DNA of 64,000 nucleotides, taken from contig OZ231126.1 of assembly GCA_965153355.1 (NCBI GenBank), positions 33,232,001 through 33,296,000 on the forward strand, written 5' to 3'. Positions 9,918 to 58,887 of the stretch are shown here, piece by piece. Position 1 is the first letter of the stretch. Each line of letters begins with the position of its first letter. The notes under the pieces were generated by a model. It was not told the origin of the DNA and searched no databases. It saw only the letters and a program-made list of their open reading frames with translations. Made by a program: the position numbers and the translations under genes. The DNA comes from Flaccisagitta enflata. Taxonomy: Eukaryota.

Positions 9918-10131
9918 CAAACACAGCAAACAAACATTCGGGTTTGCTATGCCTATGAAATAAGACAGCGATACAGACAATCAAAGAAAAAGACAGAGGA
10001 GGCGTCGCCCCATAAAAGTGAGAGCGTCAGACAGACGTCACGTTGGGAAAAAGGCTGGGTTAAGGCAACCCCCGAGACAAAAAAGAGTTCACCGCACTTT
10101 AACAACAATCTTTATGCCTATTTCCTGTCCC

Positions 10132-10472
10132 ACTTTTCGGCAGCAACCCCAAAGAAGTGATGACCCTTGCTTTCACACATAGGGGAATTTCCCCTCCTCC
10201 TTGGTGTTTCCAACTCCTTTCAATCTTAAGTCCGGGCCTCGTGGCACAAATCCCATTAAGGCATTATCCCAGTCTCGAGACTCGATTTTCAGCTTTGAGG
10301 CTCAAACACACACCTTGAGGCTGGGGTTTGACCCTTTAGGCCAAAATACCAACCTTAACGCTCACAAGTCAACAACTTTTTCGAGGCTGTTGCCCCTCTA
10401 ACCATCAAATCTTCATAAACACTAGTCTTGGGGCATCGGGTACTGTAGACCATCTGATGCTTTTGCGACTTT
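10132..10472 (+). mobile_element. Degenerate copy of the GGGCAGCGGCCCC family (see 46945-47444)
   Basis: GGCAGCAACCCCAAAG...GCTTTCACACATAGGGGAATTT start; GGGTACTGTAGACCATCTGATGCTTTTGCGACT end matches 47408-47440. Confidence 0.7.
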
Positions 10473-10829
10473 TTCTTTTCAATTTCCCATGTTTTCATAC
10501 GTGAACTTTACACGCGCTTTCACATTGTAGACGTTAATTGGAATCATTAGATAAATCAGCCTATAAATAAAATCTATTCAAAACACAAATTGAATCGATT
10601 GCAATTTGCAATCAATTTGAAAAGAAGGAAAGAAAAATCGCAGTCTTGTCCGCGGGGGGTTTCAGTATTCGCGTGTGGGGTAGTCTTGCGACTGCCGCCA
10701 AAAGATGTCCGTCTCTCAGCGCCGCTTTTGGACAGAAAAGGCCTTGATTTTGCAGGAAAACTAAAAATATGTATATGGAATATGGAAAAAAAGAGGTTCG
10801 AAAATGAAATGATGCCAGCGCTTCGAGGA

Positions 10830-11353
10830 TGTTACAATCGGGTGTGTCAATATGCAAAAGGTTTTTTGATGAGACCATCAACATCAGACAGCATGATATA
10901 TTAAATTCTAAGACCTTCAACGTTTTTCTTTTATCAAATTTCATTCATCTTCCATTTTTTTCAAAACCCCTTTTTATATGGTAATTTGTATATTGCTGCG
11001 TTGATGATTTTCTATCAGTATCATTGTTACTGAACTTAATCAGATTCAACACATGAATATCTTGGCGGTAATTTAAGTTGCAACAAAGTAATGGTTGTTT
11101 ATTTATCACCAAAATTGTATAAAGAGAAAATAACCAGTTTTTTCTGTAGATGTTATGAGTCCCATTTTCACCAAAACTCAATGCAGATGCTGGAAGTCTA
11201 CATATTTTTGACAATTTTTTCTTGCGCTAAAAAAATGTAAGATGATGGATATTTGAAAAAATAAAAAAGTTTTCGAATTCTTTTATTTACACTCTCTGAT
11301 GTCGCTGATCTAATCAAACATACTTTTGCATATTGACACACACGAATGTTACA
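10830..11353. mobile_element. Old TIR element/MITE (~525 bp)
   Basis: ~60-bp imperfect inverted repeats: TGTTACAATCGGGTGTGTCAATATGCAAAAG at left, CTTTTGCATATTGACACACACGAATGTTACA at right; no clear TSD. Confidence 0.65.
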
Positions 11354-11697
11354 ATTAAATAATGTAAGAACAACATCATGATAAAATAGATGGTTCATTT
11401 AGGAATGGTAATGTCCATGCGCAGAAATGGAAGAAATTATCCAGAATTTTCGTATTCTTATGCGACCGCTGTTTGGACAGTACATCACAAAGTTGAATTC
11501 CAAACCGACTGTCTTCGTTAGAGCTGCATCTTCAAGGTCAACGGGTACTTTTTTTTTACCTGCAACCTGTGATAGGAAGCTCGTGTAAAAACATTGGCAA
11601 CGTGACACGTTCTTCGCCTCTTCAACCTTACTTGACTTGTTTGCTCTTTGCAACGCCGAAGGAAAAGGAAAGAAAAAAAGCAAGATGCTGGAAGAAC

Positions 11698-12442
<745 letters not shown>

Positions 12443-12638
12443 AAGAAAACAAAAAGGGGGAAAATCATAAAGAAAATGCACCGACTAAGTTTGAGTTCCA
12501 CTGCCGAAACGCCCATTACATGTTAAGAAAAACACACAAAATGGCTCTGCTTTGTGAGAAAAAAAAAATAACAAAGGAAAAGTAATTGGAAAAAAAAATT
12601 GAAGTGAAAGCAAATTTATGAAGTAGGGGGAAACAGAG

Positions 12639-12735
<97 letters not shown>

Positions 12736-12809
12736 GAGACAATGAAAGAACGACTGGAAAGGGCAGGAATGAAGACATAAAGACGGGAAAAGTAAAAAGG
12801 AACCACATG

Positions 12810-14345
12810 ACTATGGCAACAAAAAAAAACGAACAGTTACTTCTTTTGCTCATAAATCCTTTGAAAATTCACCCAGTGTGTTGAAATTACTGAAGTTACC
12901 TTTTAGTATCATTAAGCATCACTGAAAAAATCAATGACCTGCTCTAAATATTTTTTGAATCATAGATTTTTTAAAAGTGATTGTCAGATGATCAGAAATT
13001 CAATGCACACACACAAGAATTTACAAAAAATGAATAAACAAACTTAAAAAAAAACATACTAAATCTAGTACGATTTTGATGAAATTTGAAGTGGAAGTAG
13101 GCCACATTGTTAGCAGGCTGTGGTAGAAATTTCATTACAAAACTCCGATTATTTTAGCAGAAACAGCATGTTTTCTAAAACTTTTTTTATGGTTTTAAGA
13201 ATATAGTAAAAGAAGATAAAATCTGAAATATAAATCAATGCTAAGGCCATAGTTTTTTACCAATTATTATGATTTTTTAACTGGGAACTTTTGTACATAT
13301 GGTTCATCTCCAGTAAAATTTTTGTGAAGATTGAAGCATTTTTAGTCCCCCAAATCGCAAAAATATTCTAACCGGTAGCAGAATATTTCTTATCCTGAGC
13401 AAGCTTACTATCAACCAATATCTACCCCACTAGACTTTATCTGAGTAGAAGCGAATTTTGCCTAGCATTAGTAAATAGCATCATTAGACTACAGTTCAAA
13501 AATCATGACAAAACTCCCAAAACTTTTTCCACAACGCCAATTTTACTAAAGATTGTATTATTTTGATTTAGGATAAACATCATCTCTGGCAGTCCAAAAA
13601 AGAGGTGACTTCAGTAAAAACATGATAACGGCTAAAGTTTTCAACGGATTTTGATGAAATTTTAACCAGACACAGTTCAAATCATGGCTATCAATCACTG
13701 TAGATTTTAACATGTAAAAGTTACCCCGATATATTTCGTGCATCACGCACTTTTTCAAGGGTTTTAGCCTGAGAACAACAAATTTTTCAATCATATCAGA
13801 TCACATAACAACATGTGTCGTACCCCATTTCATCTCACCCCACCAGTGTCTTCACCTTTAAAAACTTCCAATATCAGAATTTCTTGTGTTGCAATCAAAA
13901 AACGAATGATGAGCTGTACTAGGTAAGCACTAAAAATAGTCCCCTCTTTTAGAAGTAATGGCCCCTTTCTACACCTGGGTAAATTTACACATGCAGTATT
14001 TGGTAAATTTTATGCAAATTGGTCAACATATTCATTAGAGAAATCAGAAGCCACTCTTAAAAAGGTTGGTCTAAACAAGCAAGTTATCAACTTTGCTCTC
14101 ATACAAGGTTCAACTATACAGATTAAATCATTGATTAATTTCTGTTTTCGTAACAGAGCTGAAAAAAACATCGACCGCCAAAGTAATCATGGAGAAAGAA
14201 GAGAACAATTGACGGTTTTTTGTTTGTCCAGGTTGGATGCATATTTTCTGACTATTATTGCGGGAATTGAAAACACTGAAAGAGAGGCTTCTGATTTCTC
14301 TAATGCCATACGTTTTTGCTCTCTCGGTTTTTTTTTTACCATAGT
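12810..14345. mobile_element. Non-autonomous TIR DNA transposon (~1.5 kb), ACTATGG termini
   Basis: Left ACTATGGCAACAAAAAAAAACGAACA, right TCGGTTTTTTTTTTACCATAGT; first ~890 bp align in reverse complement to 51930-52824. Confidence 0.8.
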
Positions 14346-14448
14346 TACAGACTGAAAGAGAAATACTAACCAAGAAATACAGAAAATATGGCGGAAAAAA
14401 AGACAGACAGATAGAAAGAGAGGCAGGACTGAAGGTCAGATAGTCAGG

Positions 14449-14990
<542 letters not shown>

Positions 14991-15746
14991 AAGTGTCGAG
15001 ATTTCTTTGTTGTCTGGGTTGAACTGGTCTAGACCATGAGACGCCCGCTATTCACGGGAGAAAGACGAAGATGACAGGCAAAAAAAAAAAAAAAAAAAAA
15101 GAGTATCGGTTGGTCAACGATGCGAAATTTGACAAGTACTTTGTTTCTCGGTGAAGGGGATTAGGGCACTGTGCGGTGTAGCTATTTGGTGTTTACCAAT
15201 GCAGCAAGTAGTTACCCAACCCCAGACACTAATAAAACTTGGGTGGGTTGCCCAATTTTTTCGCCTGATCTGCTCATTATTTCAATAATTCAAAAGAAAT
15301 CAGAAAGGAAATGAAAGATGAGTATTCTCTATTCAACACATAAAAAGACGCAGAACAAAAAGTCAATCGACAGAAAGTAGTTGGGTCAGGAGTCATACAA
15401 GTAACAAGATATTTCTTCCTTAAAGCCAGCCACTGGACATCAAAAACAAACAAAAAAGCAAATCACGCGCTCTCCATCGGGACGAAACGACCAAATAAGG
15501 CCTTGTACATAATCTCTTGCGCGCTTCTGATTCAAACAAAGAAATTGAAAAACAAACCAAAGACACAATTCTCCATCAAGACAACAACAATTGGGTAGAA
15601 GCCAAAAGAAAGAGGTTTGTTTGACGTTTTTCGGTTAACTTTCCTCAAGCAAACTGTTGGAGATCAGAAAAAAAGAAGACATCTCAATTCCGACTTGTAG
15701 ACATAAAGGTAAAGTAACAAAATTACAAAAAAAAAACCTCACAAAT

Positions 15747-17253: not shown

Positions 17254-18999
17254 ACAAGGCCAACACCTATAAGTCGCGTGCGAGACATAAAAAACTGACT
17301 TGACCTAACTCCTTATTGTATCTTTTTAATCAACATGACTGAATAGGGAGAAATATAAGAAATGAATAAAATGATTTAGTTGACTAGATTGACTTAAATG
17401 AATTGATGAATAAATCAGCTTAATGAGGTATTGGAGGCCATGGAAACCCACCCACTTTTATAATTGAGTCAAATTAATCAACTCTATCAACCCAACCAAT
17501 GAAAAATGACTAAACCAGACTTAAACCAGACTTTAACCAGCAGACTTTAACCAGCAGACTTAAACCAGCAGACTTTAACCAGCAGACATAAACCAGCAGA
17601 TTTCAACCAGCAGACTCAAACCAGCAGACTTAAACAAGCAGACTTGAAATGTCATAAATGACCAAAACATACCAAAAACATAAATGACCAAAACATACCA
17701 AAAAACATAAACGACCAAAAAACCAAAAAACCAAAAAACTAAAAAAACAAAAAACAAAAAACAAAAAAACAAAAAATTAAAAAAACAAAAAACAAAAAAA
17801 CAAAAAACAAATACCAAAAACCAAAAATCGAAAAACATAAATGACAAAAAAAAAGATGTTAAATCACCAAAAACCAAAAAACCAAAAAACCAAAAAACCA
17901 AAAAAAAAAAAACAAAACAAACCTAAAAACCAAAAAACCAAAAAACCAAAAAAAAACTAAAAACAAAAAACTAAAAACCAAAAACCAAAAACCAAAAACC
18001 AAAAACCAAAAACCATAAATGACCAAAAACAAAAAAAACATAAATGACCAAAAAAACAAAAACCAAAAACCAAAAAACCAAAAAACCAAAGAACCAAAAA
18101 TCATAAATGACTCAAAAACCAGAAACCAAAAACCAAAAAACTAGGAAACAAAAACCAAAAACCAGAAAAACAAAAAACCAAAAAACCTTAAAAAACCAAA
18201 AACCAAAAACCAAAATCAAAAAACCAAAAACTAAAAACCAAAAACCAAAAACCAAAAACCAAAAAACCAAAAGCATAAATGACCAAAACATACCAAAAAA
18301 TCATGCTAAAGGACTGAAAGCCAAAAAACCAAAAACCAAAAACTAAAAACCAATAAACCAAAAAACATAAATGACCAAAACATACCGAAAAGCCATGTTT
18401 AATGACCAAAAATGACCAAAAGACCAACAAACAAAACAAAAAACAAAAAACAAACAAAAAACAAAAAACCAAAAACATTGATGACCAAAACATACCAAAA
18501 AACCATGTTAAATGACCAAAAACCAAAAACCAAAAACCAAAAACCAAAAACCAAAAATCAAAAACCAAAAACCAAAAACCAAAAACCAAAAACCGAAAAC
18601 AAAAAAACAAAAAAAAAAACAAAAAAACAAAAAATAAAAAACAAAAAACAAAAAAACAAAACACAAAAAAAAATAAATAAAAACCAAAACATTCCAAAAA
18701 ACCATGTTAAATGACCAAAAATGACATGTTATGTCATTTTGACTTAAAACCACCTTAAATGCCCTAAAATGACACAAATGACTTAAATGAACAAAGTGAC
18801 GTAAATGATCAAAAATGACCAAAAATGACTAAAACCAACCACAAATGACCAAAAACAACAAAAAAATGACTCAAAATAACTCCAGACGACCCAAAATGAC
18901 AAAAAACGACGCAAAAAAGCAAAGTGTTACGGACCGATGGACCGACGGTCCGACGGACCGACGGAGCGGGTTGTAGAGTCGCGTGCACGCTACTAAAAA
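17254..18999 (-). mobile_element. Expanded HINE-like element (1.75 kb) with internal tandem arrays
   Basis: Same termini as 16292-16683; interior holds ~14-bp AGACTTTAACCAGC repeats (17515-17645) and an (AACCAAA)n/AAATGACC low-complexity array (17655-18910). Confidence 0.8.
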
Positions 19000-19330: not shown

Positions 19331-21339
19331 CCGGAAAGAGGGAGAAAACGAAAGTGATAATGGTCCTTACTTAATTATTTTTTCTTGAATGATAAACAAT
19401 CAAACAATAAAAAAAAAAAGGAAAAAAATGTATATACGTTTATCTTTTTAAAACTGATCAAGTGTCCAAGTGTCTCGATCAGAATGCAAATCATAAACCG
19501 CTCAACATAAGAAAACTATGTAAAAATTGCTGTAAGTAGGGTGTAGGGATGGTGACCCCATCCAAATCGTCCTTGTGGTTTTTCCAATGAATCCCATTTT
19601 CTCTCTCTCCCTTAAATTCTCGAGTCATATGGAAGAATATTCAATCATTTTAAAATATGTTTTAAAATTCGTTCAAAACAAAAAAATTAATTTCTTTGTT
19701 TTACTGACACACATATGCAAAAAATTTGAAAGAAGTACAAAGATAGAAAAAAAAATCAAAGATGCAAAAAAAAAAAAAAAAAAAAAAAAACAAAAAACAA
19801 AAGCAAAAAAAACAAACAAAAAACAAAAAACAATGACAGGAAATTTGAAATATAAAACAAGTTTTAAAAGACAATTAAAAATAAATTGAAATATAGAATC
19901 TAAAAAAAATGAATGCTAAACAAGAAAAAAAGGATGAAGAATGAAAAATAAAACATAAAAAATGAAAAATGTTAAACTTCATGATAGAATTAGAAAAAAA
20001 GTAGTCTATACAATTTACTTATTAAAGCAATCATACATTTTTTTATCTATGATTCTAATGTGATCACAGGATATCTACCATGAAAGTGAAAAAAAAGAAA
20101 AAAGAAACTATTTCCACCATCATCAAAAATGGAGAGAGGAGGAGGAGTAGGAGGAGGAGGGCCGGGATATGCATCAGCTCCCGGGAATTCGGGACATGGT
20201 GATGTCCCGGCATGTCGGGGCCTCGGGACCCAAGTCCCGCCAGGCACTGCTCATCAGGGAATCTTTTGGTCTTTGTCAGTGACTTATCATCTATGTCATA
20301 TTGATGTAAGGTTTCCTAGTAAAATTAAAGTTTCAAAAAATTCGCACGGAGCTTTTTTCCAGATGTACTTTCCCCCACTTAACCTTGTTCACCGTGTAAA
20401 GCGATTTTTCATTGGCTAAACTAATGATGACCCACATGCTGGAATTCGTAAGCCGTTGCATTTCTTTCCTTCAATTTTTTTTTTAAAAACAATTTCTTTT
20501 GTTAAATAGTAAGGAAACTATATGCTTGAATATTGCAGACTGATGAAAAATCCAAGAAGGGAGTAGTTCTCTTTAGGAGTATACCAATAAAGGCGACTCT
20601 CCCCGTAGGAAAAAAGTGCGAGGTTTTGGGTCTCTTTCTCTCTTTTTCTCTCTTTTTCTCTCTTTTTCTCTCTCCCATTGTCATTTTCTCTGTCCCCTTC
20701 TCTCTCTCTCTCTTTCTCATGTATCATGGGGTTACAATATTGTTGCGGACAGGTGGACAGAGGCAACCAACCCCCATCCACACCCCAACCCCAACCCCCA
20801 CACACAAGCATCTAGACTGCTAGTTTTTTCCACTTGGACGGACAGACGGACCAACAGACCGATGCACACTGGACCATGACCCGGAAAGTTTCAATGTGTT
20901 TTAAAATGTTACATTATGTCGAAAAAAACAACTTTGCAGTTTTCCTTAAACGTCAGCTAACGTCAGCTAGATACCACGATAGTGACTAGCTCAAGACATC
21001 AAGAAATATGGCGGGCATGTCACTAGGTGTGGACGATGTGTGCGCAATGCTGACGTTAACGTCAATAATAAGAAAAAGACGTTACTGCAATATGCAAATT
21101 AACCGACTTTATCGGAAGAAAAAACCGGCGAAGGGAAACCTAAACATCTTTTCTTGAGTCAACTCAAACGATGCTTGTGTTTGTTGTCTCGTAACCGTGG
21201 TTACGCCAGTCAGAACGTCGTTTTAGTGCTGGTTTGTGTATTATGTGCAGTGGGACTATGGCAGTGTTTATTATGCGATGTTACAACTAAACTTGCCATA
21301 GAAGTTTTTGTCGGTGTTGGTGAAGGGAAGCAAATTTAG

Positions 21340-21637
<298 letters not shown>

Positions 21638-21837
21638 TGCATTGAGCATCCTTAACGGTTTTCCCATCCGCCAACCATCTAAGTCTAATGCTAATTTTCA
21701 GTTGTACTACTATTTCAGTCACGCACTTCCAAATTACCGTCTTGAATTGTGGGTTGAATTTTAAGCAATCACCAGAAACTTCTGACCATTAAGATTTGGA
21801 AGTAGATATTCGTTCATTCAGTTGAATATGTTGGTTG

Positions 21838-28715: not shown

Positions 28716-31664
<2,949 letters not shown>

Positions 31665-35697: not shown

Positions 35698-35900
35698 TTT
35701 TTAGTCGCGTGCACGCGACTCTACAACCCGCTTTGTCCGTTGGTCGGTCGGTCGGTTGGTCGGTCGGTTGGTCACACTTTACTTTTTTTTATGATTTTAT
35801 TTCTTTGACCGCACTGCTACTGCCCAAATGATCTGGTGACCTCAAATATGGCCCCTGCCCACCCGCACGCGACTTCGGTAGCCGTGTATCCGGCCTTGTT
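35698..35900 (+). mobile_element. Intact HINE/DINE-1-like element (reference copy)
   Basis: TTTTT-AGTCGCGTGCACGCGACT palindrome, (GGTC/GGTT)n, 3' subTIR GCACGCGACT, hairpin GCCG-TGTATC-CGGC, CTTGTT end; near-identical to 58688-58887. Confidence 0.9.
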
Positions 35901-36282: not shown

Positions 36283-36578
36283 TTTTTAGTCGCGTGCTAC
36301 GCGACTCTACACCCCGCTTTGTCGGTCCGTCCGTTGGTCCGTGGGTCCGTCGGGTCGTGGGTCCGTCGGTCCGTCCGTCGGCCCGTCCGTCGGTTCGTCC
36401 GTCAGTCCGTCCGTCGGTCCGTCCGTCGGTCCGTCCGTCGGTCCATCCGTCACACTTTTCTTTTTTTGTGTTTTTGTGGTCTTTGACCTCACAGCTCCTG
36501 CCCAAATGATCAAGTGACCTCAAATATGGCCCCTGCCCACCCGCAGGCGACTAGGGTAGCCGTGTATCCGGCCGTGTT
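36283..36578 (+). mobile_element. HINE-like element with long (GTCC/GTCG)n tract
   Basis: Same architecture as 35698-35900. Confidence 0.88.
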
Positions 36579-36660
36579 TAGACACAGTCCAATATCATAA
36601 AAAAAATGATAATAGATGAAAGAGAAAAAATGTATGAGAACGAAAAAAGAGGAATGAAAA

Positions 36661-37176
36661 CAAAGAAAACAAACTCGTCAAAGGAAACAAAATTGTCAAG
36701 GAAAACAAAATCGTCAAAGAAAACAAAATCGTCAAAGAAAACAAAATTGTCAAAGAAAACAAAATCGTCAAAGAAAACAAAATCGTCAAAGAAAACAAAA
36801 TTGTCAAAGGAAACAAAATCGTCAAAGGAAACAAAATCGTCAAGGAAAACAAAATCGTCAAAGAAAACAAAATTGTCAAAGAAAACAAAATTGTCAAAGT
36901 AAACAAAATCGTCAAAGAAAACAAACTCGTCAAAGGAAACAAAATCGTCAAGGAAAACAAAATCGTCATAGAAAACAAAATCGTCAAAGAAAACAAAATC
37001 GTCAAAGAAAACAAAATCGTCAAAGTAAACAAAATCGTCAAAGAAAGCAAACTCGTCAAAGGAAACAAAATCGTCAAGGAAAACAAAATCGTCAAAGAAA
37101 ACAAAATCGTCAAAGAAAACAAATTCGTCAAAGAAAACAAAATCGTCAAAGAAAACAAAACAAAACAAAATCGTCA
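36661..37176. repeat. 18-bp minisatellite (AAAGAAAACAAAATCGTC), ~28 units
   Basis: Directly visible; variant units recur at 126-bp spacing. Confidence 0.95.
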
Positions 37177-37331
37177 TTGTAGGACACCGTGAGTAGAGAG
37201 AACTGGTCACCTCTTGCAAAGATCTGAAGTCTTTTTTCTCTTTTTATTTCTTACAAAAAAAACTAACAATAAACAAAGCATAAGGGACACGATAAAAGAA
37301 GACAAATATGAGGCCGAAGAGGAGGAAGAAA

Positions 37332-37365
<34 letters not shown>

Positions 37366-37754
37366 AGAAGAAGAAGAAGAAGAAGAAGAAGAAGAAGAAG
37401 AAGAAGAAGAAGAAGGAAAAAATGAAGAACTCTTTGACAACGCCCAGAGGCCAATTACATATAAACGCAGAGGAAAAGTGAGCGGGAGGAGCAGCAGGAT
37501 TTCAACGGTTTTTTCTCTTCTTCAAATGCCCCTGAGGGGGCGATCATCGCGGCCGCGGGGAAATAAGGGTAAGGAAGGGAGGTAAGCCAGAAAATCCCCC
37601 GATGGCACCGAGCAGAAGAGGAAATGCCTGAGGTCAGCCACAACGAGAGGAAAAGAGGGCGAAAAGGGGAACAGCCAAGGAGAAAAAATGAGGAGCGGCT
37701 AAAACAAGAAATAGTAAATAATCGATGCGACGGGACTTTTTAGTCGCGTGCTAC

Positions 37755-38239
37755 TGATGGATCGGGTACTGAGGCCCGATCCTAGATGAAATCAAGCCAT
37801 CCCTGAGGACCCTAATATCTAGCAATGCTCCCCTTAGCCAGGCGAAGGAGCCTATCCCATGATCTAACTGAGCCTAAAATATAAGGCAATGAAAGAGAGA
37901 TGATAAAAGCATAAGTGGTGGATCCTCTGAATATAATCAATCAAGCAATAAAACTAGAATCTCTACCCAAAGGCAGAGGCATACTACCCAAACAGCAATG
38001 AGCAGGGATATAAATAGAATGAGCAGTGATACAGCAATGCAAGGTCAAGCAAAAGGGGCAATGATTGGGTGAGTCTTTCTAGGAGATCCGTCCTCTCATT
38101 GGTCAATCCATGGTCAGGTGAGTCCATCTTCTCATCCGTGATTGGTCCATCTTCTGGGTAGGTCACAAAGGGTACCGGGAAGGTCCGGTAGAGACTAGGA
38201 AAGTCCGCTGGGTGATGGGAAGGTCCGCTCGGCACAACA
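37755..38239 (-). repeat. 3' LTR (485 bp)
   Basis: About 7 substitutions and one 1-bp indel versus the other LTR, by manual comparison. Confidence 0.95.
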
Positions 38240-38250
38240 GCCCTCCCCTT
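38240..38250 (-). other. Polypurine tract
   Basis: - strand AAGGGGAGGGC immediately before the TG of the 3' LTR. Confidence 0.85.
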
Positions 38251-40901
38251 GAACGGTGTCGACTTCCAGGAGACGTAACAAGAGAACTAACGTCACAGTA
38301 CCCCTGGCACGGCCCAGCTCCTCCAGCATTCTCAACATCCTCATCACCTCCAACACGAGCAAAGATGACATAGTCGACGCTGTCAAATGACATGACTAAG
38401 CGCCCATCACAAAGATCTACCCTCTGTGATTCAGCCAACTAAGCCCTGCAGCTCCAGGTCTAATGAGGCCATATATACTAAAAATATAAAAAATGCGCCC
38501 TCAAACTGTGCCAACAGAATGTCTTGCACATCAAACTGAAAAGAAGGAATGAATAGCACACCAAATGGTTCTACTCTTCTTTTTTTTTTTATTTTCTTAT
38601 TTTTACTTTTGATGAAGGCTGTAAACTCAGTTGCCCTAAAGGCATAGCAAAATCATAAAAAAAAAGATCATCAAAACTTCAAATAGCGATGTCATATGCG
38701 CAAAAACAAGGTGGAGTGAAACAAAGTTGCGCTCGCCTGCCGCATTTATCACCAACAGTGCCTCACCACCACCTAAACGCGATCTAGCACTGAGACATAC
38801 AGCCACAATGCTCCAAACAAAGTGATTGTTGCTGCCGTACTTGTCGGCACTATCTGAAAGACATGAGCCAAGCATGGAAGCACAAAAAAAAAATAAGAAT
38901 CAGGGTCGATCAATGAAAAATCAAGGAAACATGGTGCGTATGCTGACATTTCATAAAAACATCCAACCGCTACCTAAGATATGACCTAATACCATACATT
39001 GTGAGCGATGCTGTTCACAATAAAAAAACAAATGAATTAATTAAAAATCATTCTAAAAAAAATTGATAAACATAAGAGTAAATCAACACATAAATAACCA
39101 AATTTCATTTGAAATATGAAAAAAAAATAAACCTAGATATCAAATACTTTCCCAGTATCAAAAAAATAAAAACCGAGAAAAACCATAAAAATTATTCAAA
39201 AAAAAAATGAGCCTCTAAACTTCATAAGCACCGAAAAAACACCCCTGTCCCGTTCATTGTGTCATAAACCCACATCTCAATGGAAACACATCCTTACACC
39301 CCCAACCGCGCGATAAAATCGCTCGAACTTGAAGAGGATGCAAAGGTTGTTTTTGAGATTATCCTAATGGTGGACAACTAAACTTAAAAGCCAGACATCA
39401 TTTTAGAATTAACCAACTCACCCACAATGACTGAATAACAACGGTTGAAGCATATCGAAGGGTAAAAATTACTTCCACTCATCGTCGACTGCCCACCAGA
39501 TGGCGTTCTGCTGGTTTTGGTCATTGTAACAATTATACCACGAAACCCCACCGTGCGCAGATTGGTAGGCGTAGACGCGCTCAAGACAGACTGACGCAGC
39601 TGTAGCGTAGAATACCAATAAAACGCGGCTTCTAAAGAAATGCTACTTCTCATATCGCACACGGAATAAATGATAATTCATGGAGGAACAAAACCATAGA
39701 AAAAAGACTAACAAGGCCAGACACACGGCCACCAGCCGCGGACGGGTGGACCGACGGACAAAGCCCCCCACAGAGTCGTGTGTCCGCAAACAAAAACCAA
39801 GCCAAACAATTCCTAGTGGCGGGCCCAAACGTGTCGAACTACATTTCCTATCAAAACATAAGAAATGTTCGGATCAACAATGCGTTATGTACTTTAGAAA
39901 TAACAAGTATAAAAGAGAAATCCGAAACGAGAATTAATCTTGATAAGGATCAATTGAGTGCCCGCCTATCGAGTATGCGTGTACACACGCTCATGTTAAG
40001 ACTCAAAACTTTTTTTTTTCTGGGGGGGGGGGGGGTCATATGTAACAAAAATAATATCATGTCACAAATTGGTACCTCCGACCCGCGCGATAAAATCGCT
40101 CGAATTTGAAGGGGATACAGAAGCACAAGTGAAATGACAAATCACGCAAGAAATACTTAATAAATTCACTTATGATATACGACACCCGCCTGACGACAAT
40201 TCGAGTCACAACACCTTCATTATCTTACTTGGTGAGATGTCTGTTGATGGCGTTTTGTTGTTCCGACAACCATCGAGAAACCGCGAAACAAACAGAAGAA
40301 AGACTAAGGCTGGACCCACGGCACCATAGTCACAGACGGTGGGGCAGGGGCAGCGACCCAAAACCCGTCCATAACTCAAGATTGAGGACAGACGGACAAA
40401 CCGACTGACACAGATTCACTGCTTCCCTAAAAGCAAATACAGCGCTCCTGGCATGTACCCGAGGGCAGGAACAGTGCAGTCACGCTACTGACAAGCATGC
40501 ACCTGGAAGAACACATATCTGTGTCAAGGCGATGAGTGCATTCGACCTTGTTAATTCGGCTTTGTTGATGGTCAATAGATAAATAAGCCAAAGACTGATC
40601 GTGATATATGAGGGCAAAGATCTGTCTGATAACGGGCTCTATTCATCAAGTAACCATGAAAAAACCGACTTCACGTGACCATTACATAAAGCGCGTAAGT
40701 ACTGGCTGTAAAAATATTCGCACCTCAAGTCAACGAAAACAATCAAAAACATCCTATCGTGCCCCTTATCAATTGCGCGCTTAGACACGCTCAAATTCTT
40801 TCTTCTTTCCTTTTTTTTGGGGGGGGGTGTAAAACAAAAAATGAAAATAATAATAATAATAGTAATAATAATAAAAATGATAATAAAAATAATAATAAAA
40901 A

Positions 40902-40932
<31 letters not shown>

Positions 40933-42409
40933 AATAAAAATAATAATGATAATGATAATAATAATAATGATCATCGGTCCGGGCCTCATCCGAAAGACGG
41001 AAACCGTCACCGTTGTGGGCGGTTTAATCAAAACTAAAGAAGAAACGACCAAGACTAGACAAAAAGAAACGACCACGACGTACCCCATTGGTTGCTCATG
41101 ATGAGACCATGCCGGACAGGATGAGAGACGAACTACAGTAGACAGATTTGACTTCGTTTGAAAGACGCAAATCGTAATCGTCAATGAGAACTCCAGAAAA
41201 TGAATGCAAACGACCAAACTCGCCGCCCATTGTTCCCATCCATGTACACATCCAATTCATAACGAATTCATGCAAGTAACAAAAACGTCTAATACTACAC
41301 AACTGTGTACTACTGGTAAAACTTATGTTAAAACTAAAAAAAAAAATTGTGTCCGTGATCAATTCCCATCGCCTCAGTGATCAAGCGAGCCTGTGTGATC
41401 TTAAAGGTACCGAACAAGTGAGGAGGAGACATGGGGGAAACCTCAGAACACTTGTTGCGTAGGTGAACCTCATATTGTCTTAGCTTTACCAGCATTAATT
41501 TTTCTTTCAAAACATTTTTTTTTCTTCTTGACTAAGAAAATATTGTCACGCCGCAGGCTGAAAAGAGAAAAAAGTGTTCAACTAGAATACTTTTGTATTT
41601 CCTACTCAGGCAAGTATTTTAAGTATTCCAGAGCCAGAACCGGAAATAACAAAAAGTAAATAAAGCAATTTAAAGAGAGGTTCATTATTTCAGATGGGGG
41701 GGGGGGGGGGGAGAGGGGGTATAACAATGCGCGAGGCAGAGCCTCTCGCCTCTCTCTGTGGTCCAAGCTGATATAAAAGCTCATTCACGATCATCCACAT
41801 ATACTGGTTCTCAAAAATCTATAACTTGAAATGAAAATAACAATAAGTTAAGATCACTTTTTGCTTTTACAATATGATAAAAATTCGTCTCTAATCAAAT
41901 TTCCGCTGTCATATATGTCCTTGTTTTATATTTCCTTTTGTTTCCTCCCTTAAAATAATCTCCCTTTTTTTTTTCCTTTTTTTTTTTTTTTTGTGGGAAA
42001 CAAAACCAAAAAAAAGAAGGGTAGTCAAAACATGTATCTCCGTACACATAAAAATTGCCTGTATTCTCAGGACAGATAATAAATGTCTGTGACCGAGACC
42101 ACTTCAACAGATAAGTGAAGAACAGAAAAACACAGCCAAACCCCTCTAAGAGAGAGCTTGTCTTGCACAATTTTAGGAGTATTACATCACTTTAACTTAA
42201 AACCAATGCACGAGCAAAAACCAATTCCACGGAAACCATTGACGTTGGCCTAGCCTACCTGTGTAGATGGGCTTCTTGAGTCGGCCAAGCGAGGGCGTAA
42301 ATTGAAGGCTATTGTTATTGAACAAATTAAACCTCCATGCCTCTAGATTTCCGTGGGATTCATCTACTTACGATGGTAGTGCCCAATTGATAATGCAAAC
42401 CGAGAACAA

Positions 42410-42590
42410 ACAAGGCCAGACACACGGCCACCAAAGTCGTGTGCGGTTGGGCAGGGCGATGAAAAAAAAACTTGGGCAGGAGCAGTAATGCAAAACACTC
42501 CCACAAACGCCCAAAAAGCCCAGTGTGATGGACGGACCGACCAATTGACATAGCAAGCCATGAGAGTCGCATGCTGTGACGTGACTAAAA
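42410..42590 (-). mobile_element. Degenerate HINE inside the LTR element (others at ~39710-39790 and ~40305-40410)
   Basis: ACAAGGCCAGACACACGGCC ... GAGTCGCATGCTGTGACGTGACTAAAA. Confidence 0.7.
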
Positions 42591-45267
42591 AAAAAAAAAG
42601 ATTTAAAAAAAAAATACTGATATAACCTGAAATTTCCATTAGTGCTGCGGCCAGGGCCTCGAAAAAATTTCCAGTTAAAAACAAGCAAAAAATTGGACTG
42701 ATTGCCTTTCCTGAAAACATACATGAACCCATAAAAATCTAGGTTCTTCATAGGTGGAAAAAAATGTCGATCAAATATCTCATTCCTGTTTCGTTATTGT
42801 TTACACTTTAGTTTACATTAAAAAAAAAATAGTCCAGCCAGTGTGCCATATCATCCCTTAGGCAACATCCCTTAAAAGCAAGGGCCGTGCTGCTGAGTGT
42901 GAACTCATCAGCGGCTCTTTAAGAAAAGGGGAAATGCAGGAGTCGGATTTGTAGCACCATGCGGCACAATAGTAAAACTAGTCAAATGAAATGAGTCTTG
43001 TCAAGTCAGAATCCAATAATGGACCCCCATCTCGCATCTCAGTCAACCCCATTTCCAATACGGTGAAATGAACAATTTTAAACATCTGTCTCATAATTCA
43101 CCATAGCTTACGCCCAAATCACCTGGGGCCAAGTTAGTCATTCAAATTGGGCTAAGGCAAGCCTCTTCAAGTCGCAATAAACCAACAAATGGTTTCAGCG
43201 GTAAAACATTGCGCTTACATTAAGTATGAGAAGCATGATACACTTCCATGGTTTGCTTTATTGGTGAGCAAAAGTTTAGATAATGGGGAGGGGCGATAGG
43301 GGCCGTAAGACCATAAGACACAAGACTCGGCTCCAAGTGAAATATTCGCTGTGCCCACGATTTACTCGGCCACATAGCTACCACCAAAGGTCACAAGCTG
43401 GTTAAAATCCATAAGTGGCTGCTAACACATCAAAAGCAATCACATACCAGTAGCAATAGTTTTCCAACTCTTGAGAGGTCGGATTTATTGGAAACCAGTA
43501 AACAAGGCCAGAGCCCAATGTGTCACTGTGTATCTCAGCCTCAAGGCCCAATGAGACAACTGCGTAGTAAGTGGCCCAATAACACAATTTGACAAAATCA
43601 CTCGGTTCACTCCTAGACCCAATCATTTTCTTGTGAAAATGATATTGGCGCTTATATATATATATATTTTTTTTTTTGTAAAAAGAAATCATTTTATAAA
43701 AAAAAATTTCTTTTTCGAACTTCAGTTGCCAGTCGTTTTCTACAGTAAATATTGAGTGGGAAACACATGAAGAGCAATGTATTTGTAAGGTCGCGCGTAT
43801 GCTCACACTCGTGTATGAAAAAGGGAAATAGATAAAAAAATCAAATCAAATCCCGCCATTAAAAGAAGCGTTGCAGATAGCTTCAAATCATTTAAAATAA
43901 GCTTTGCAACCTTTAGACAAAATAATAAAAAAAAATTAACTAAAAAAAAAAATTGATTAAAAAATGGAAAACCAAAACATTTTTGTTTTAAACTGTTCTA
44001 ATTGTTGTTCATTTTATCTATCCAAACAAAGATTACATAAGTCAACCAAATAATCTAATATCTAAAACAGGTATGTTTAATTCAATTTTAAACGTCCATA
44101 AAAATGATCATGAATTATCGCAGATGAAGTGAAACAACTCACATCCCTTACGCATGAAATCTGTCAGTCTGCACATACCTTGCTTAGAAGCAGATAAATA
44201 CCGTTCCATGGTTTTGAGCAGTTCTTGATTTTCCGTCTGAAGAAGTAGCCACCAATTTTTTTTGAGAAAATGCCGTGGGATGACGTGAATGCTTCGTGGC
44301 GAAATCAGAGCAGGATGAACCACTGTATGCAATTAGGACTTGACAGAGGAGAGATGAAAATGATGACAGAACACAATTGGCGAGAAAAAAATATACTTCG
44401 CGTTTTGCTCATTGAACAATGTCTGATCCTACAAAAAGAATAACAAAAAAACGATCCACACAAACGCCTTACTCCCGTCCATAAAAAGGTGAAAAAATTA
44501 GTAAACTGGTAAAATCAAAAATCAAAAATCAAAACTCAAACGAAAAAAAAATGTAAAGTATAGATGAAGAACCAACAAAAACGCCAAATCTTGAAACTTA
44601 AATGAAACAGTTACCACGCCGAGCCCAAAGAAAGCATTGAATACCCAATTCTAACACCAAATAGTCAAGTAAAAAAAAGAGTAGAAAGATAGGAATGTCC
44701 AGTGATCAATTGGACAGAGCATGAATCAGTCACAAGGGATCTCTTCTCCCGCGGCCGACGTCTACCAACGGGGGTGGGGACCAGAGATGTAGGCTTTTAA
44801 CCCAAACCTTTGGAAAGGGCGCCTAAAATCAATGCTAATACAAAAAAAACTTCTCCAGCGTCAATGGGCCTATATATTTACAATGGTACAACTTATACCC
44901 CTACGGCATATTCATGCATTGTCAACAGTTCAGCCCACTGCCACTAGGCTGAAAGTGGCATACACCCAGAGATTACATGGGCCGCTAATTTCCTGTTAGG
45001 GGCCTCGTTCATGAATCACGAAGAGGGAAATTATGAATAAAAAGAAAAGAATTAAAATGAATCCCGTGTACTCGGCGCTGCAAAGCAGCTCCAAACGGAG
45101 AGAGAGAGAAAAAAAATAACCCATCCTTTCTTTACCTGTAATGACGAAGACGAGGGAAGGAAAAAAATGTTCAGTGATAGAAGACGGCCAACCGCGCGAC
45201 CTGAACCCCGATACTCTCGACTTCTCAGCCTAAGCTAAAAGAAGAGAAGAAAAAAGAAAAGTCGAGT

Positions 45268-45281
45268 CGGCCGATGCACCA
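45268..45281 (-). other. Primer-binding site complementary to the 3' end of tRNA-Gly(GCC)
   Basis: - strand TGGTGCATCGGCCG, 1 nt after the 5' LTR; matches the ...CGGCCGAUGCA-CCA end I recall for invertebrate tRNA-Gly-GCC. Confidence 0.85.
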
Positions 45282-45282
45282 T

Positions 45283-45766
45283 TGATGGATCGGGTACTGA
45301 GGCCCGATCCTAGATGATATCAAACCATCCCTGAGGACCCTAATATCTAGCAATGCTCCCCTTAGCCAGGCGAAGGAGCCTATCCCATGATCTAACTGAG
45401 CCTAAAATATAAGGCAATGAAAGAGAGATGATAAAAGCATAAGTGGTGGATCCTCTGAATATAATCAATCAAGCAATAAAACTGGAATCTCTACCAAAGG
45501 CAGAGGCATACTACCCAAACAGCAATGAGCAGGGATATAAATAGGATGAGCAGTGATACAGCAATGCAAGGTCAAGCAAAACGGGCAATGATTGGGTGAG
45601 TCCATCTAGGAGATCCGTCCTCTCATTGGTCAATCCATGGTCAGGTGAGTCCATCTTCTCATCCGTGATTGGTCCATCTTCTGGGTAGGTCACAAAGGGT
45701 ACCGGGAAGGTCCGGTAGAGACTAGGAAAGTCCGCTGGGTGATGGGAAGGTCCGCTCGGCACAACA
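45283..45766 (-). repeat. 5' LTR (484 bp)
   Basis: Direct repeat of 37755-38239, followed by the TSD CTAC at 45767-45770. Confidence 0.95.
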
Positions 45767-46443
45767 CTACGCGACTCTACACCCCGCTTTGTCGGTCCGT
45801 CTGTCGGTCCGTCCGTCCATCGGTCCGTCACACTTTACTTTTTCGGCGTTAAAGGGTTTTTTGGCCTTATTGCTCCTGCCCAAATGTTCCACTGACCTCA
45901 ATTATGGCCCCTGCCCACCCGCACGCGACTGGGGTAGCCGTGTATCCGGCCTTGTTTGAATACAGTCTGTGTCTCTGGGGGATCAATTAGTGAGGACCAT
46001 GAAACGGCTGGGAGAGTGTGAATCAATGACGAGATCATGATGTCGTAATATCATAATATCATAAAATCATGGAATTATAGTAAGTATCATGATATCATAT
46101 CATATTATCATATCCTAATATCATGATCCGATTTTTAGTCGGAAACGTACCTTTTGTGATGCAGAAAAGGCAAATTAGAATTTTTGAACGCCCAGAATTT
46201 GTCCATTGTCATTTGGTTGTTGGATTGTTTGGTGGTCTGTCGTCTCTTAGACAAATGTGGAGCGATACATGGATGAAGTTTTATTGATACTCCATCATCG
46301 TCAAAAATATTCCTACGGAACGTTTACAATAAAGGCGAAGAAAATCTTAATCGTCTGGAAAGTGGAAACCCTTTAGATTCCTTCATTCGTCATGAGAGGG
46401 TTTTATTTTGTTCAATTTGGACGAGAATTGTATCTGTGTGTGT

Positions 46444-48213: not shown

Positions 48214-48622
48214 AACAAGGCCAACACCTATAAGTCGCGTGCGAGACTTACAGTTTGATTTAGAATGACTTAGAATGACTTAGTATACTCTTAAATAACT
48301 TAAAATGCCTTTAAAAAACAAAATTGATAAAAAAAAGTAAAAGTGTGATGAACAAACCGACAGACAAACGGACAAACGGACGGACAGATGGACGGACGGA
48401 CGGACGGACGGACGGACGGATGGACGGATAGACCGACGGACGAACGGATGAACGGACCGACGGACCGACGGACCGACGGACGGACCGACGGACCGACGGA
48501 CGGACGGACGGACGGACGGACAGATGGACCGACGGACGGACGGACGGACGGTCGGACGGACGGACGGACGGACGGACGGACGGACAAAGCTGGGTGTAGA
48601 GTCGTGTGCACGCGACTAAAAA
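48214..48622 (-). mobile_element. HINE-like element with ~240-bp (GACG/GACC)n tract
   Basis: AACAAGGCCAACACCTATAAGTCGCGTGC ... GAGTCGTGTGCACGCGACTAAAA. Confidence 0.88.
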
Positions 48623-48940: not shown

Positions 48941-49318
48941 GAATGAGAGAGGGTTAAAGACTGATTCTTACCGCATCTACTTGACTTCACCTGCATCCCT
49001 TTCTCTCCTAAGTTGTAGTGTTCTCATTCTTTTTCTTTGTGGCCCGTGCGAAGCCTCTGTGTGGTGCCCTTGCCAATTTTGATCCCGAACTGTCGGCTTA
49101 GCGGTTAGATGTTGCCCGCTTTCAGCTCTAATCGTTTCAAACATGTCCTACATCCTGATTTAAAAAAAAGTTTTTGATGCAAAAAGGCTTAAACCTTGAG
49201 ATGAATGATGTATCTAGTTCTGTTGATTTTTACTTTCTAATTGATTCTTATGACCATATCTGACTTACAGCACCGAATCGGTTCATAATTTATCTGACCG
49301 TGTTTCCGTATCTTTGTG

Positions 49319-49438
49319 TTTTAAGTTGCGGACACGCAACTCTATAGGAGACTGTGTCCGTCCATTGGAGAGGTTGCTGGGGGTTGGATGCCCCTGCCCA
49401 CCCGTCCGCAACGATATTGTGACCCCATGTCACTTGTT
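49319..49438 (+). mobile_element. Short HINE-like element, AGTTGCGGAC subfamily
   Basis: AGTTGCGGACACGCAACTCTATA ... GTCCGCAAC ... CACTTGTT; related pieces at ~20720-20870 and ~30750-30864. Confidence 0.7.
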
Positions 49439-49596
49439 GTCTATACCAATAAAGGCGGCTAATCGCCGACCGGAAAAAAATCGTAAATGGGAGGTTCTTT
49501 TTTTCTGTGCATGCCTTTTTGCGAGTGTATCTCATGCTGTTAGATTGACTCCTTGTCTGCTTTTTATTTAATCTGTGTCTCTTTTTCCTCTCTGTC

Positions 49597-50139
<543 letters not shown>

Positions 50140-54700: not shown

Positions 54701-54892
54701 AACAAGGCCGAATACACGGCTACCCCAGTCGCGTGCGGGTGGGCAGGAGCAGTGCTGGAGAGTCAGTAGTGTATTTGGGCAGGAGCAGTAAGCTCAAAAA
54801 GCTCAAAAACGCAAAAAAAAGTAGAAAGGGGACCAACCAACTGACCATCCAGCCAACCGACCGACCGACCGACCAATGGACCGACATAGCGG
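54701..54892 (-). mobile_element. 5'-truncated HINE-like element
   Basis: AACAAGGCCGAATACACGGCTACCCCAGTCGCGTGCGGGTGGGCAGG, then (ACCG)n. Confidence 0.8.
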
Positions 54893-55563
54893 GATTAGTT
54901 GATGAGGCCTAGAAATGGCAAAAGGGTTAAGTTGTGATGGAAGGGAGGGATACACATAGTTGAGTACGAGGTGTGATGTGAGCAAGCATGGGGAAGTTTG
55001 ACATAATGTAGCTTAAAGGAAAACACAAATTTAAAAAATCATTTTTTACATACATGTATCATCGGACAAATGGCGAGAATTCCATTTGATGAATTAACGG
55101 TCTTACGAAGCGGTTGCAGGGGTAGAAATGAGGATGCGGATTGAGGATCAGGGGATGAATGGGATCGCAGTTAATTGTCTACATTTGCATATACGATTGT
55201 TTGCGTTTGCACCGGAAGTCATTTGTAGACGCGGCGCCGAATAATCGCGCCGAGTCTGAATTTGAAACATTTCGCGAGAAATGATATTTTCACTCCTCCA
55301 TTCCAATTTTCTCTTTTCTCGAAGATTGTTTACATCGTTTTGAACCACTTATCATCAGACATCACGCTTCACTTGACGTTCATTCTGTCTGTTTGCGCAC
55401 TCTCTGTTTCACTGTCTTTCTCTTTTCGTTTTATTCCGTGGCTTCGTTCAATTTGCGTGTCTACTATAAAGCGTTCTGTCTGTCGGTCCCTCTTTCTGTC
55501 TTTTTACAGTATCTGTCTGTCTATCAGTATTTCATTCTATCTTCCACATGCCACATTCTTGTG

Positions 55564-58687: not shown

Positions 58688-58887
58688 TTTTTTAGTCGCG
58701 TGCACGCGACTCTACAACCCGCTTTGTCTATCGGTCGGTCGGTTGGTCGGTTGGTCCGTCACACTTTACTTTTTTTTATGATTATATTTCTTTAACCTCA
58801 CTGCTCCTGCCCAAATGATCTGGTGACCTCAAATATGGCCCCTGCCCACCTGCACACGACTTCGGTAGCCGTGTATCCGGCCTTGTT
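58688..58887 (+). mobile_element. Intact HINE-like element
   Basis: Near-identical to 35698-35900. Confidence 0.9.

What the first reader, a model, noticed from the sequence alone, without database searches (positions are those of the whole stretch)
37755..45766. Young 8-kb LTR retroelement with all cis signals intact but a 7-kb interior lacking gag/pol (animal LARD-like parasite primed by tRNA-Gly)
Seen: TG...CA LTRs of 485/484 bp differing at only ~8 positions (~98% identity), perfect CTAC TSD, 14-nt PBS TGGTGCATCGGCCG, and a PPT. Between PBS and PPT there is no ORF above ~135 aa except a microsatellite-driven one, and I found no CCHC, protease, YxDD or integrase motif in the ORFs or the parts I translated. 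Established: LTR divergence dates the insertion; 4-bp TSDs are typical of Ty3/Gypsy; large non-coding LTR derivatives (LARDs) are mainly described from plants. Inference: ~2% LTR divergence is far too little to erase gag-pol in situ, so the element was already non-coding when it moved and was mobilised in trans.
Basis: partly seen in the sequence, partly recalled or inferred. Interest (0 to 1): 0.75.

Follow-up and report, generated by a model that had tools for sequence, protein, structure and literature searches.

The report
Young non-coding LTR retrotransposon copy
An 8-kb mobile element with intact repeat ends and priming sites but no genes of its own lies inside a very common short repeat; such hitch-hiking elements are already known from plants, mice and mosquitoes, so this is a well-formed but fairly ordinary example.

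Summary
Two direct LTRs, 37755-38239 and 45283-45766, differ by 7 substitutions and 1 indel. They are flanked by a true CTAC target-site duplication. The element reads on the minus strand. A 14-nt PBS is complementary to the 3' end of tRNA-Gly(GCC) and lies 1 nt from the 5' LTR. A purine tract abuts the 3' LTR.

The 7,043-bp interior gave no gag, protease, RT, RNase H or integrase match, either read through in six frames or as 83 separate open frames.

The element sits inside one copy of a very abundant ~190-bp SINE-like repeat. Other copies of that repeat show the unbroken target.

Contigs from two runs of the same organism and one marine metagenome show the interior is not single-copy. Variants 90-93% alike cover it, and contigs span both LTR/interior junctions. 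The LTRs and a ~1.25-kb leader have more summed depth than the core. The second individual lacks this exact copy.

Best reading (0.7): a non-autonomous, LARD-like LTR retrotransposon moved in trans. No partner could be sought because no genome is held.

Comparable elements are in print for animals: mouse ETn, VL30 and MaLR, and non-coding LTR families of Culex. This is a new member of a known kind, of modest interest.

The parts
37736..37754 (.). Left part of the target: the start (T-run and hairpin arm) of one copy of a ~190-bp SINE-like repeat. It ends in the left CTAC (37751-37754).
   Evidence: other copies carry the same letters unbroken. (loose ends, and joints 45956/45957 to 37736/37737).
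37755..38239 (-). 3' LTR in element orientation, 485 bp, TG...CA.
38240..38250 (-). Polypurine tract AAGGGGAGGGC (10 purines, then C) abutting the 3' LTR.
   Evidence: read directly from the sequence.
38251..44031 (-). Non-coding core with nested repeats. Summed contig depth is about 2.5-7 times that of an exact single contig in X1.
   Evidence: no coding. (X1 bins 186-547 against exact contigs of 70-92; variants 90-93% alike in X1, X2, X3).
39710..39751 (.). Fragment of the SINE-like repeat inside the interior, in the orientation opposite to the target copy.
   Evidence: nhmmer E 1.1e-05. (bin depth 2,833 in X1).
40306..40409 (.). Partial copy of the SINE-like repeat inside the interior.
   Evidence: E 2.2e-12.
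40846..40968 (.). (AAT)n microsatellite, 41 units. It produces the only long open frame.
41192..41759 (.). Nested high-copy repeat of unknown kind. No other copy lies in the window.
   Evidence: X1 depth 16,007 and 23,835; X2 10,008 and 12,866. (no match elsewhere in the window).
42409..42552 (.). Near-complete copy of the SINE-like repeat. Its A-rich tail runs to about 42600 on the plus strand, so it is antisense to the element.
   Evidence: E 1.5e-28.. (bin depth 35,124).
44032..45267 (-). Leader next to the PBS, with higher summed depth than the core. It is possibly shared with other members of the LTR family.
   Evidence: X1 1,721 / 2,377 / 898 / 1,164; X2 1,529 / 738 / 1,198 / 1,138. The sharing is an inference.
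45268..45281 (-). Primer-binding site TGGTGCATCGGCCG, complementary to the last 14 nt (with CCA) of tRNA-Gly(GCC). A 1-nt spacer lies at 45282.
   Evidence: (tRF GlyGCC letters in PMC4572633).
45283..45766 (-). 5' LTR in element orientation, 484 bp. Sense-strand motifs: CCAAT at 45668-45672, 45625-45629 and 45591-45595, and a TATA-like TATTTATA at 45536-45543. No AATAAA or ATTAAA on the sense strand.
   Evidence: The motifs are pattern matches only.
45767..45957 (.). Right CTAC (45767-45770) and the rest of the interrupted SINE-like repeat copy.
   Evidence: (E 3.8e-55). (bin depth 1.3e7 in X1).

Best explanation
This is one copy, on the minus strand, of a non-autonomous (LARD-like) LTR retrotransposon. 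It keeps everything needed in cis: LTRs with TG...CA ends, a PBS for tRNA-Gly(GCC) and a polypurine tract. It encodes no Gag or Pol.

Likely cycle (inferred from the established LTR-retroelement pathway, not shown here):
1. An RNA is made from the 5' LTR, which carries three CCAAT motifs and a TATA-like motif.
2. The RNA is packaged by particles of a coding element of the same or a related LTR family.
3. It is reverse-transcribed from tRNA-Gly at the PBS and from the PPT.
4. The partner's integrase inserts the copy, duplicating 4 bp.

This copy landed in the hairpin loop of a very abundant SINE-like repeat. The landing was fairly recent: LTR distance is 0.0146, and the copy is absent, as this exact sequence, from a second individual. 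The core carried SINE copies and a microsatellite when it moved.
For: Shown:
- LTR pair, TSD, PBS and PPT.
- The TSD is real because 15 of 15 other copies of the target repeat printed from the window are unbroken there, and 3 of them carry a single CTAC. The loose ends agree.
- No retroelement domain in 6 read-through frames or in 83 open frames.
- The PBS is the complement of the tRF GlyGCC 3' end printed for Drosophila.

Interior not single-copy:
- X1 has exact contigs of depth 70-92, and variants over the same stretches with 24 other letters plus 14 gaps in 366, and 27 plus 7 in 304.
- X2 holds only 0.14 of the exact words, but 7 of its 8 listed pieces lie on the interior and are about 91-95% alike.
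- X3 record 17 spans 37967-38401 (LTR/PPT/interior) with 29 other letters.
- X3 record 24 spans 45124-45368 (interior/PBS/LTR) with 3 other letters.

Depth pattern: LTR and leader exceed the core. X2 has LTR 1,470-4,834, leader 738-1,529, core 138-484.

Possible empty site: X2 record 9 follows the left flank (2 other letters in 214) and leaves the window exactly at 37754. Contigs join 37753 to 45777 in X1 (depth 84.7) and in X2.
Against: - No autonomous partner was found. None could be sought genome-wide because no genome is held.
- Contig lays cannot show that the other variants are colinear, LTR-bounded at both ends, or at separate loci with their own TSDs.
- Summed depth is not a copy number.
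- In X1 the LTR bins are low (75.9 and 200), unlike X2. This is unexplained.
- None of the 7 listed X2 interior pieces is more than about 95% alike, so the source copy of this young insertion is unseen.
- The joints over the insertion have short sides (18-22 letters) in a highly repeated flank. They may come from other repeat copies.
- In about 6 in 100 of the poly(A) RNA run X8 (1,824 million letters) no read lay on the LTR bins. Reads lay only on nested repeats and low-complexity stretches.
- LTR-LTR gene conversion could make the copy look younger than it is.
Confidence: 0.7

Rival explanations
1. A one-off chimeric retrocopy. A coding LTR element's reverse transcriptase switched templates onto a long host non-coding or intronic RNA (LTR-mediated retroposition). 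This copy is then the first product, not a member of a propagating non-coding family.
For: - The core looks like ordinary DNA of this genome. It has 3 hits of the SINE-like repeat in 7 kb against 35 hits in 56 kb outside, a microsatellite and another high-copy repeat.
- The core has low depth.
- The mechanism is documented in flies, mosquito, fish, chicken and mammals (PMC5131818, abstract and passages).
Against: - A first product should have a parent about as close as the two LTRs are to each other (about 98.5%). The listed variants in X1 and X2 are about 90-95% alike.
- A 93% variant already carries the LTR/PPT/interior junction (X3 record 17). The LTR-plus-interior combination is therefore older than this insertion.
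- No exon-like or poly(A) remnant lies at the PPT side.
Confidence: 0.12
2. An old or duplicated structure rather than a recent transposition. This could be a segmental duplication or assembly join that places two LTRs around repeat-rich DNA, or an old element whose LTRs were homogenised by gene conversion.
For: - Pipelines often mislabel any two repeats with a spacer as LARD, and in bdelloid rotifers these were mostly segmental duplications (PMC5718144, passages).
- No listed contig spans the whole stretch.
- The left-flank contig in X1 has about twice the depth of the exact interior contigs (170.6 against 70-92). This could mean a duplicated flank.
Against: - The ends are TG...CA.
- PBS and PPT sit exactly at the inner LTR edges.
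- A 4-bp TSD interrupts a repeat whose other copies are unbroken.
- Exact X1 contigs cover interior stretches with 0 other letters.
- Independent metagenome contigs cross both LTR/interior junctions.
Confidence: 0.08
3. A once-coding element that lost gag-pol in place after insertion, through deletions and nested insertions.
For: Nested repeats do lie in the interior.
Against: - LTR distance is only 0.0146.
- No remnant of any retroelement domain was found.
- The same non-coding interior exists in more diverged variants in other samples. The loss therefore predates this insertion.
Confidence: 0.05

Closest known systems
Plant LARDs (large retrotransposon derivatives, e.g. Sukkula of barley; Kalendar et al. 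2004, as cited in PMC7215508, passages read)
   Same: LTRs, PBS and PPT are kept. A large internal domain has no protein-coding capacity. Movement is presumed to depend on proteins of an autonomous element.
   Different: - The host is a marine organism, probably an invertebrate animal.
- No sequence relation to plant LARDs was tested.
- Abundance appears low rather than high.
- Conservation of a core domain and of RNA structure across many copies was not shown.
- The core carries SINE-like copies and microsatellites.
Mouse ETn elements mobilised by MusD (PMC6466679, passages read)
   Same: - An animal LTR element with no coding capacity.
- Insertionally polymorphic.
- In the mouse case, coding-competent MusD supplies the machinery that moves ETn (passage). 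That ETn shares its LTRs and adjoining inner ends with MusD is my recollection, not read here. The higher depth of LTR and leader here would fit that pattern.
   Different: - The partner here is unknown.
- ETn and MusD are betaretrovirus-like ERVs of a vertebrate.
- That ETn uses tRNA-Lys is my recollection, not checked.
- No traces of retroviral homology were seen here.
Non-coding LTR retrotransposons of Culex quinquefasciatus (38 families, cqUNK; PMC3286476, abstract and passages read)
   Same: - Invertebrate LTR elements of about 3-14.6 kb with LTRs, a tRNA-matched PBS and a TSD.
- No coding sequence.
- No identifiable master copy.
   Different: Those families are defined by internal tandem repeats and have thousands of BLAST hits. 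This element has only one microsatellite and nested interspersed repeats, and seems low-copy.
VL30 (packaged by MLV) and MaLR (related to ERV-L) of mammals (PMC6466679, passages)
   Same: Non-autonomous LTR elements of animals that are moved by related coding elements.
   Different: They are of vertebrate retroviral lineage. MaLR interiors are short (recalled). No relation by sequence was tested.
LTR-mediated retrocopies (PMC5131818, abstract and passages)
   Same: Host-derived sequence between retrotransposon LTRs that can be retroposed again as a pseudo-LTR element. This is a possible origin of the core.
   Different: Those carry exonic mRNA pieces with microsimilarity at the switch points. 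No parental gene, exon junction or switch point could be identified here.

Membership tests
LTR retrotransposon (structural definition) | Two direct long terminal repeats ending TG...CA | tested here: met
   485 and 484 bp, 98.35% alike, TG...CA.
LTR retrotransposon (structural definition) | Short target-site duplication made on integration | tested here: met
   CTAC on both sides. The unbroken target is seen in 15 of 15 other copies of the host repeat printed from the window, with a single CTAC in 3 of them. Loose ends agree.
LTR retrotransposon (structural definition) | PBS complementary to a tRNA 3' end just inside the 5' LTR, and a PPT just inside the 3' LTR | tested here: met
   tRF GlyGCC letters in PMC4572633. 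The host's own tRNA-Gly gene could not be read: no tRNA in the window and no genome held.
Autonomous LTR retrotransposon (Ty3/Gypsy, BEL/Pao, Ty1/Copia, ERV) | gag and pol (protease, RT, RNase H, integrase) whose order and RT phylogeny define the superfamily | tested here: not met
   0 retroelement Pfam families in 6 read-through frames at E<=1 and in 83 open frames at E<=10. The superfamily therefore cannot be assigned.
LARD | No protein-coding capacity between the LTRs | tested here: met
LARD | Large internal domain (the rule of over about 4 kb, against TRIM, is recalled from Wicker et al. 2007 and not read here) | tested here: met
   The interior is 7,043 bp and the element 8,012 bp.
LARD | A structurally uniform group of many copies sharing a conserved non-coding core | tested here: inconclusive
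   Variants 90-95% alike cover the interior in X1, X2 and X3, and contigs cross both LTR/interior junctions. Colinearity, copy number and separate loci could not be shown from contig lays.
LARD | Conserved RNA secondary structure of the core (PMC7215508 passage) | not tested
   No sequences of other copies could be fetched, so covariation could not be counted.
Non-autonomous/autonomous pair of the ETn/MusD type | A coding partner sharing LTR ends, PBS and the adjoining internal ends | not testable with these tools
   No genome is held. Two metagenome scans and two viral-contig scans gave no relative. Only the depth pattern hints at shared ends.

The most novel reading that the evidence does not exclude
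The element is a currently mobile (presence/absence polymorphic) non-coding LTR element of a marine invertebrate. Its 5.7-kb core is captured, ordinary host DNA with SINE copies and a microsatellite, picked up by template switching. It now propagates as a small family. It has no coding partner with the same LTRs, so it is cross-mobilised by a different LTR family that also uses tRNA-Gly.
Probability: 0.15. Interest if true: 0.5.

Novelty: new member of a known kind. Interest (0 to 1): 0.25.

Why it matters
It is a clean case of a non-coding LTR retrotransposon outside plants, checked at the base level. It passes the tests that automatic 'LARD' calls in animal genomes usually skip: terminal TG...CA, TSD against an unbroken target, PBS and PPT (caveat in PMC5718144).

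If the presence/absence difference between individuals holds, some coding LTR element in this organism is, or recently was, active. The element could then serve as a marker and as bait for finding that partner.

It does not open a new question. The principle of trans-mobilised LTR elements is established in mouse and plants and has been described for mosquitoes.

Tried and rejected
- Whole-genome search: none held.
- tRNA genes in the window: 0.
- Rfam at gathering score over the window: 0. Rfam at E<=1 over 37500-46000: one chance hit on the AAT microsatellite (CrcZ, 19 bits against 95).
- Earlier findings of this scan: nothing by place, by sequence (LTR, SINE-like repeat) or by words.
- Metagenome contigs, LTR-end+PBS 22-mer: 0.
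- Metagenome contigs, PPT+LTR-start 20-mer: 6 contigs (L001-L006). They have 59-65% G+C and match the window over only 20-23 bases, so I rejected them as chance or bacterial.
- Viral contigs, two patterns: 0.
- No RNA holder listed by the look-up of sequencing runs.
- A plus-strand reading of the element, rejected. After 38239 there is no TGG-type PBS, and the purine run at 45239-45263 lies 19 nt from the LTR. The minus strand has both signals abutting.
- Pfam sub-threshold hits, rejected as noise or low complexity: PANTS-like, DUF4834, Atrophin-1 and others.
- Literature search for LTR families that use a tRNA-Gly PBS: 2 of 2 listed papers were irrelevant. No superfamily hint came from the PBS.
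- Dating the insertion in years: not attempted, because the host's substitution rate is unknown.
- The 110 complex ORFs of 70 aa or more outside the element: none reached a Pfam cut-off, so no partner or gene is seen in the window.
Full report
**1. The observation**

The repeat finder and BLAST show one pair of long direct repeats, 37755-38239 and 45283-45766 (98.35% over 485 columns). A global alignment gives 7 substitutions (4 transitions) and one single-base indel, Jukes-Cantor distance 0.0146.

Both repeats run TG...CA. CTAC stands directly before the first and directly after the second.

The element reads on the minus strand:
- One base after the minus-strand end of the LTR at 45283 lies TGGTGCATCGGCCG (45268-45281).
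- Directly before the other LTR lies AAGGGGAGGGC (38240-38250).

The PBS word is unique in the 64 kb, even with two mismatches allowed. Shuffles give a mean of 0.06 matches.

On the plus strand neither signal abuts an LTR, so I rejected that reading.

**2. The TSD is real**

The flanks are the two halves of one copy of a ~190-bp interspersed repeat. An nhmmer profile built from its copies in the window finds 38 hits at E<=0.01, 35 of them outside the element.

I printed the starts of 15 other copies. All 15 are unbroken at the insertion point. Three (at 36299, 29617 and 16667) read ...TTTTTAGTCGCGTG-CTAC-GCGAC... with one CTAC.

In the read lay, 483, 488 and 180 loose ends before 45767 (X1, X2, X3) have a consensus ending in the left-flank letters.

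The element therefore entered the loop of a short hairpin (AGTCGCG...CGCGACT) of that repeat and duplicated CTAC.

**3. No coding capacity**

- Stop-to-stop frames over the element: the longest is 205 aa, made by the (AAT)41 microsatellite. The next are 157, 147 and 141 aa.
- The six frames of the 7,043-bp interior, read through with X at stops, gave no Pfam family at E<=1 in five frames. The sixth gave one sub-threshold hit (PANTS-like, 13.4 bits against a cut-off of 27).
- All 83 open frames of 40 aa or more, covering 89% of the interior, were scanned at E<=10. 17 had some hit. None reached a curated cut-off, and none was a gag, zinc-knuckle, protease, RT, RNase H or integrase family.
- With LTRs 1.5% apart, a gag-pol decayed in place would be plainly visible.

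**4. Is the interior single-copy?**

No genome is held, so I used public runs.

- X1 holds 0.80 of the sampled words of the interior.
- X2, the same coded organism, holds 0.14.
- Five marine metagenome runs hold 0.05-0.13.

Laid at 85% likeness or more:
- X1 has exact contigs over interior stretches: 0 other letters, depth 70-92.
- Over the same stretches X1 also has second contigs. One has 24 other letters plus 14 gaps in 366. Another has 27 plus 7 in 304. Their depth is about 81.
- 7 of the 8 listed X2 pieces lie on the interior and are about 91-95% alike. The eighth is the left flank.
- X3 record 17 crosses LTR/PPT/interior (37967-38401, 29 other letters).
- X3 record 24 crosses interior/PBS/LTR (45124-45368, 3 other letters and 1 gap).

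The interior with its LTR junctions therefore exists in other, older variants.

**5. Depth pattern**

| Region | X1 | X2 |
|---|---|---|
| Core bins | 186-547 | 138-484 |
| Leader 44032-45167 | 898-2,377 | 738-1,529 |
| LTR bins | 75.9, 624, 1,265, 200 | 1,470-4,834 |

The X1 LTR values are an unexplained contrast with X2.

Sub-stretches are far higher:
- 39488-39771: 2,833.
- 41192-41759: 16,007 and 23,835.
- 42328-42611: 35,124.
- The flanking repeat bin: 1.3e7.

Two of these are copies of the same SINE-like repeat. The stretch 41192-41759 is another repeat with no copy elsewhere in the window.

Summed depth is not a copy number. Still, the ordering LTR > leader > core is what one expects if the LTRs and the inner ends are shared with a larger family. 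This is an inference.

**6. Recency**

- X2 record 9 follows the left flank 37541-37754 with 2 other letters. It leaves the window exactly at the LTR edge, with 5 further letters that do not fit the LTR.
- Contigs join 37753 to 45777 in X1 (depth 84.7) and in X2. Their sides are short (18-22 letters) in highly repeated DNA.
- In X1 the flank contig has depth 170.6 and the exact interior contigs 70-92. This fits a heterozygous insertion, but also a duplicated flank.

I read this as suggestive, not proven, presence/absence polymorphism.

**7. The primer**

A Drosophila paper prints the 3' fragment of tRNA-Gly(GCC) as attcccggccgaTgcacca. The GlyTCC fragment differs at the capital letter (PMC4572633, passage). 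The PBS is the exact complement of the last 14 letters.

The same 3' letters appear, under other labels, in small-RNA tables of a moth and of cattle (PMC11677245 and PMC4547040, passages). They are therefore widespread in animals.

The host's own tRNA could not be read.

**8. Expression**

In about 6 in 100 of the poly(A) RNA run X8, no read lay on the LTR bins. Reads lay only on nested repeats and an A-rich stretch. That individual may not carry this copy.

**9. Mechanism and rivals**

The best reading is a non-autonomous LTR retrotransposon moved in trans (0.7).

Rivals:
- A one-off template-switch retrocopy (0.12). The 93% junction contig and the lack of a 98%-alike parent among the listed pieces argue against it.
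- A duplication, an assembly join or a conversion-homogenised old element (0.08). The base-exact signals and the junction contigs from an independent sample argue against it.
- Loss of gag-pol in place (0.05).

**10. What is known**

- LARDs are defined as LTR elements with a core domain and no protein products, presumed to be trans-complemented (PMC7215508, passages).
- Arkhipova warns that pipelines call any two repeats with a spacer LARD or TRIM without checking the ends or the TSD, and that such types are not prominent in animals (PMC5718144, passages). This element passes those checks.
- Animal counterparts are in print. These include 38 non-coding LTR families of Culex, some 7.5-14.6 kb, with no master copy (PMC3286476, abstract and passages). 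They also include mouse ETn moved by MusD, VL30 co-packaged with MLV, and MaLR (PMC6466679, passages).
- LTR-mediated retroposition offers an origin for host-like interiors (PMC5131818, abstract and passages).

This is therefore a new member of a known kind.

**11. Limits**

- Two metagenome scans and two viral-contig scans gave no relative.
- No TE-specific protein library was on hand.
- The window holds no ORF with Pfam support and no tRNA or Rfam family. The host is therefore known only as a marine organism with poly(A) RNA data, probably an invertebrate animal (inference).

Noticed in passing
window 45767-45957 (with 37736-37754); also e.g. 35713-35900, 36411-36578, 58704-58887, 54701-54896, 29617-29764: A very abundant ~190-bp SINE-like repeat. 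It gives 38 nhmmer hits in 64 kb, and its summed word depth is 1.3e7 in X1 against about 80 for single contigs. It begins with a T-run and a hairpin (AGTCGCG..CGCGACT). It holds a (GTCC)-like stretch that is tandemly expanded in some copies (e.g. six partial units at 48333-48607). Read in reverse it ends in an A-run. No tRNA, 5S or 7SL likeness was found by ARAGORN or Rfam.
   Followed up: partly
window 41192-41759: A high-copy repeat inside the element's interior (summed depth 16,000-24,000 in X1, 10,000-12,900 in X2, 500-1,000 in the marine metagenome X3). It has no other copy in the window and its kind is unknown.
   Followed up: no
window 4960-5536, 9415-10160, 11399-12522, 14128-15051, 18188-18706, 21336-21788, 36578-37243, 37316-37429, 49290-49883: Unusually many long microsatellites and minisatellites: (AC)n, (GA)n, (GAA)n, an 18-mer array and CTTT-like arrays. 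They produce all open frames of 150 aa or more outside the element. The window has no ORF with Pfam support.
   Followed up: partly
window 39301-39342 and 40078-40119: A 42-57-nt direct repeat (81-92% alike) lies 777 bp apart inside the interior, next to SINE-like fragments. It may mark two copies of a further small repeat.
   Followed up: no
L001-L006 (metagenome contigs): Six contigs with 59-65% G+C share an exact 20-23-nt word with the PPT/LTR junction and nothing else. Five share the same 23 letters, so they are probably homologous bacterial loci matching by chance.
   Followed up: partly
window 37784-38067 and 45452-45735 (LTR bins): Summed contig depth on the LTR is 76-200 in run X1 but 1,470-4,834 in run X2 of the same coded organism, while interior depths agree. 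Either LTR copy number differs greatly between individuals, or contig filtering differs.
   Followed up: no
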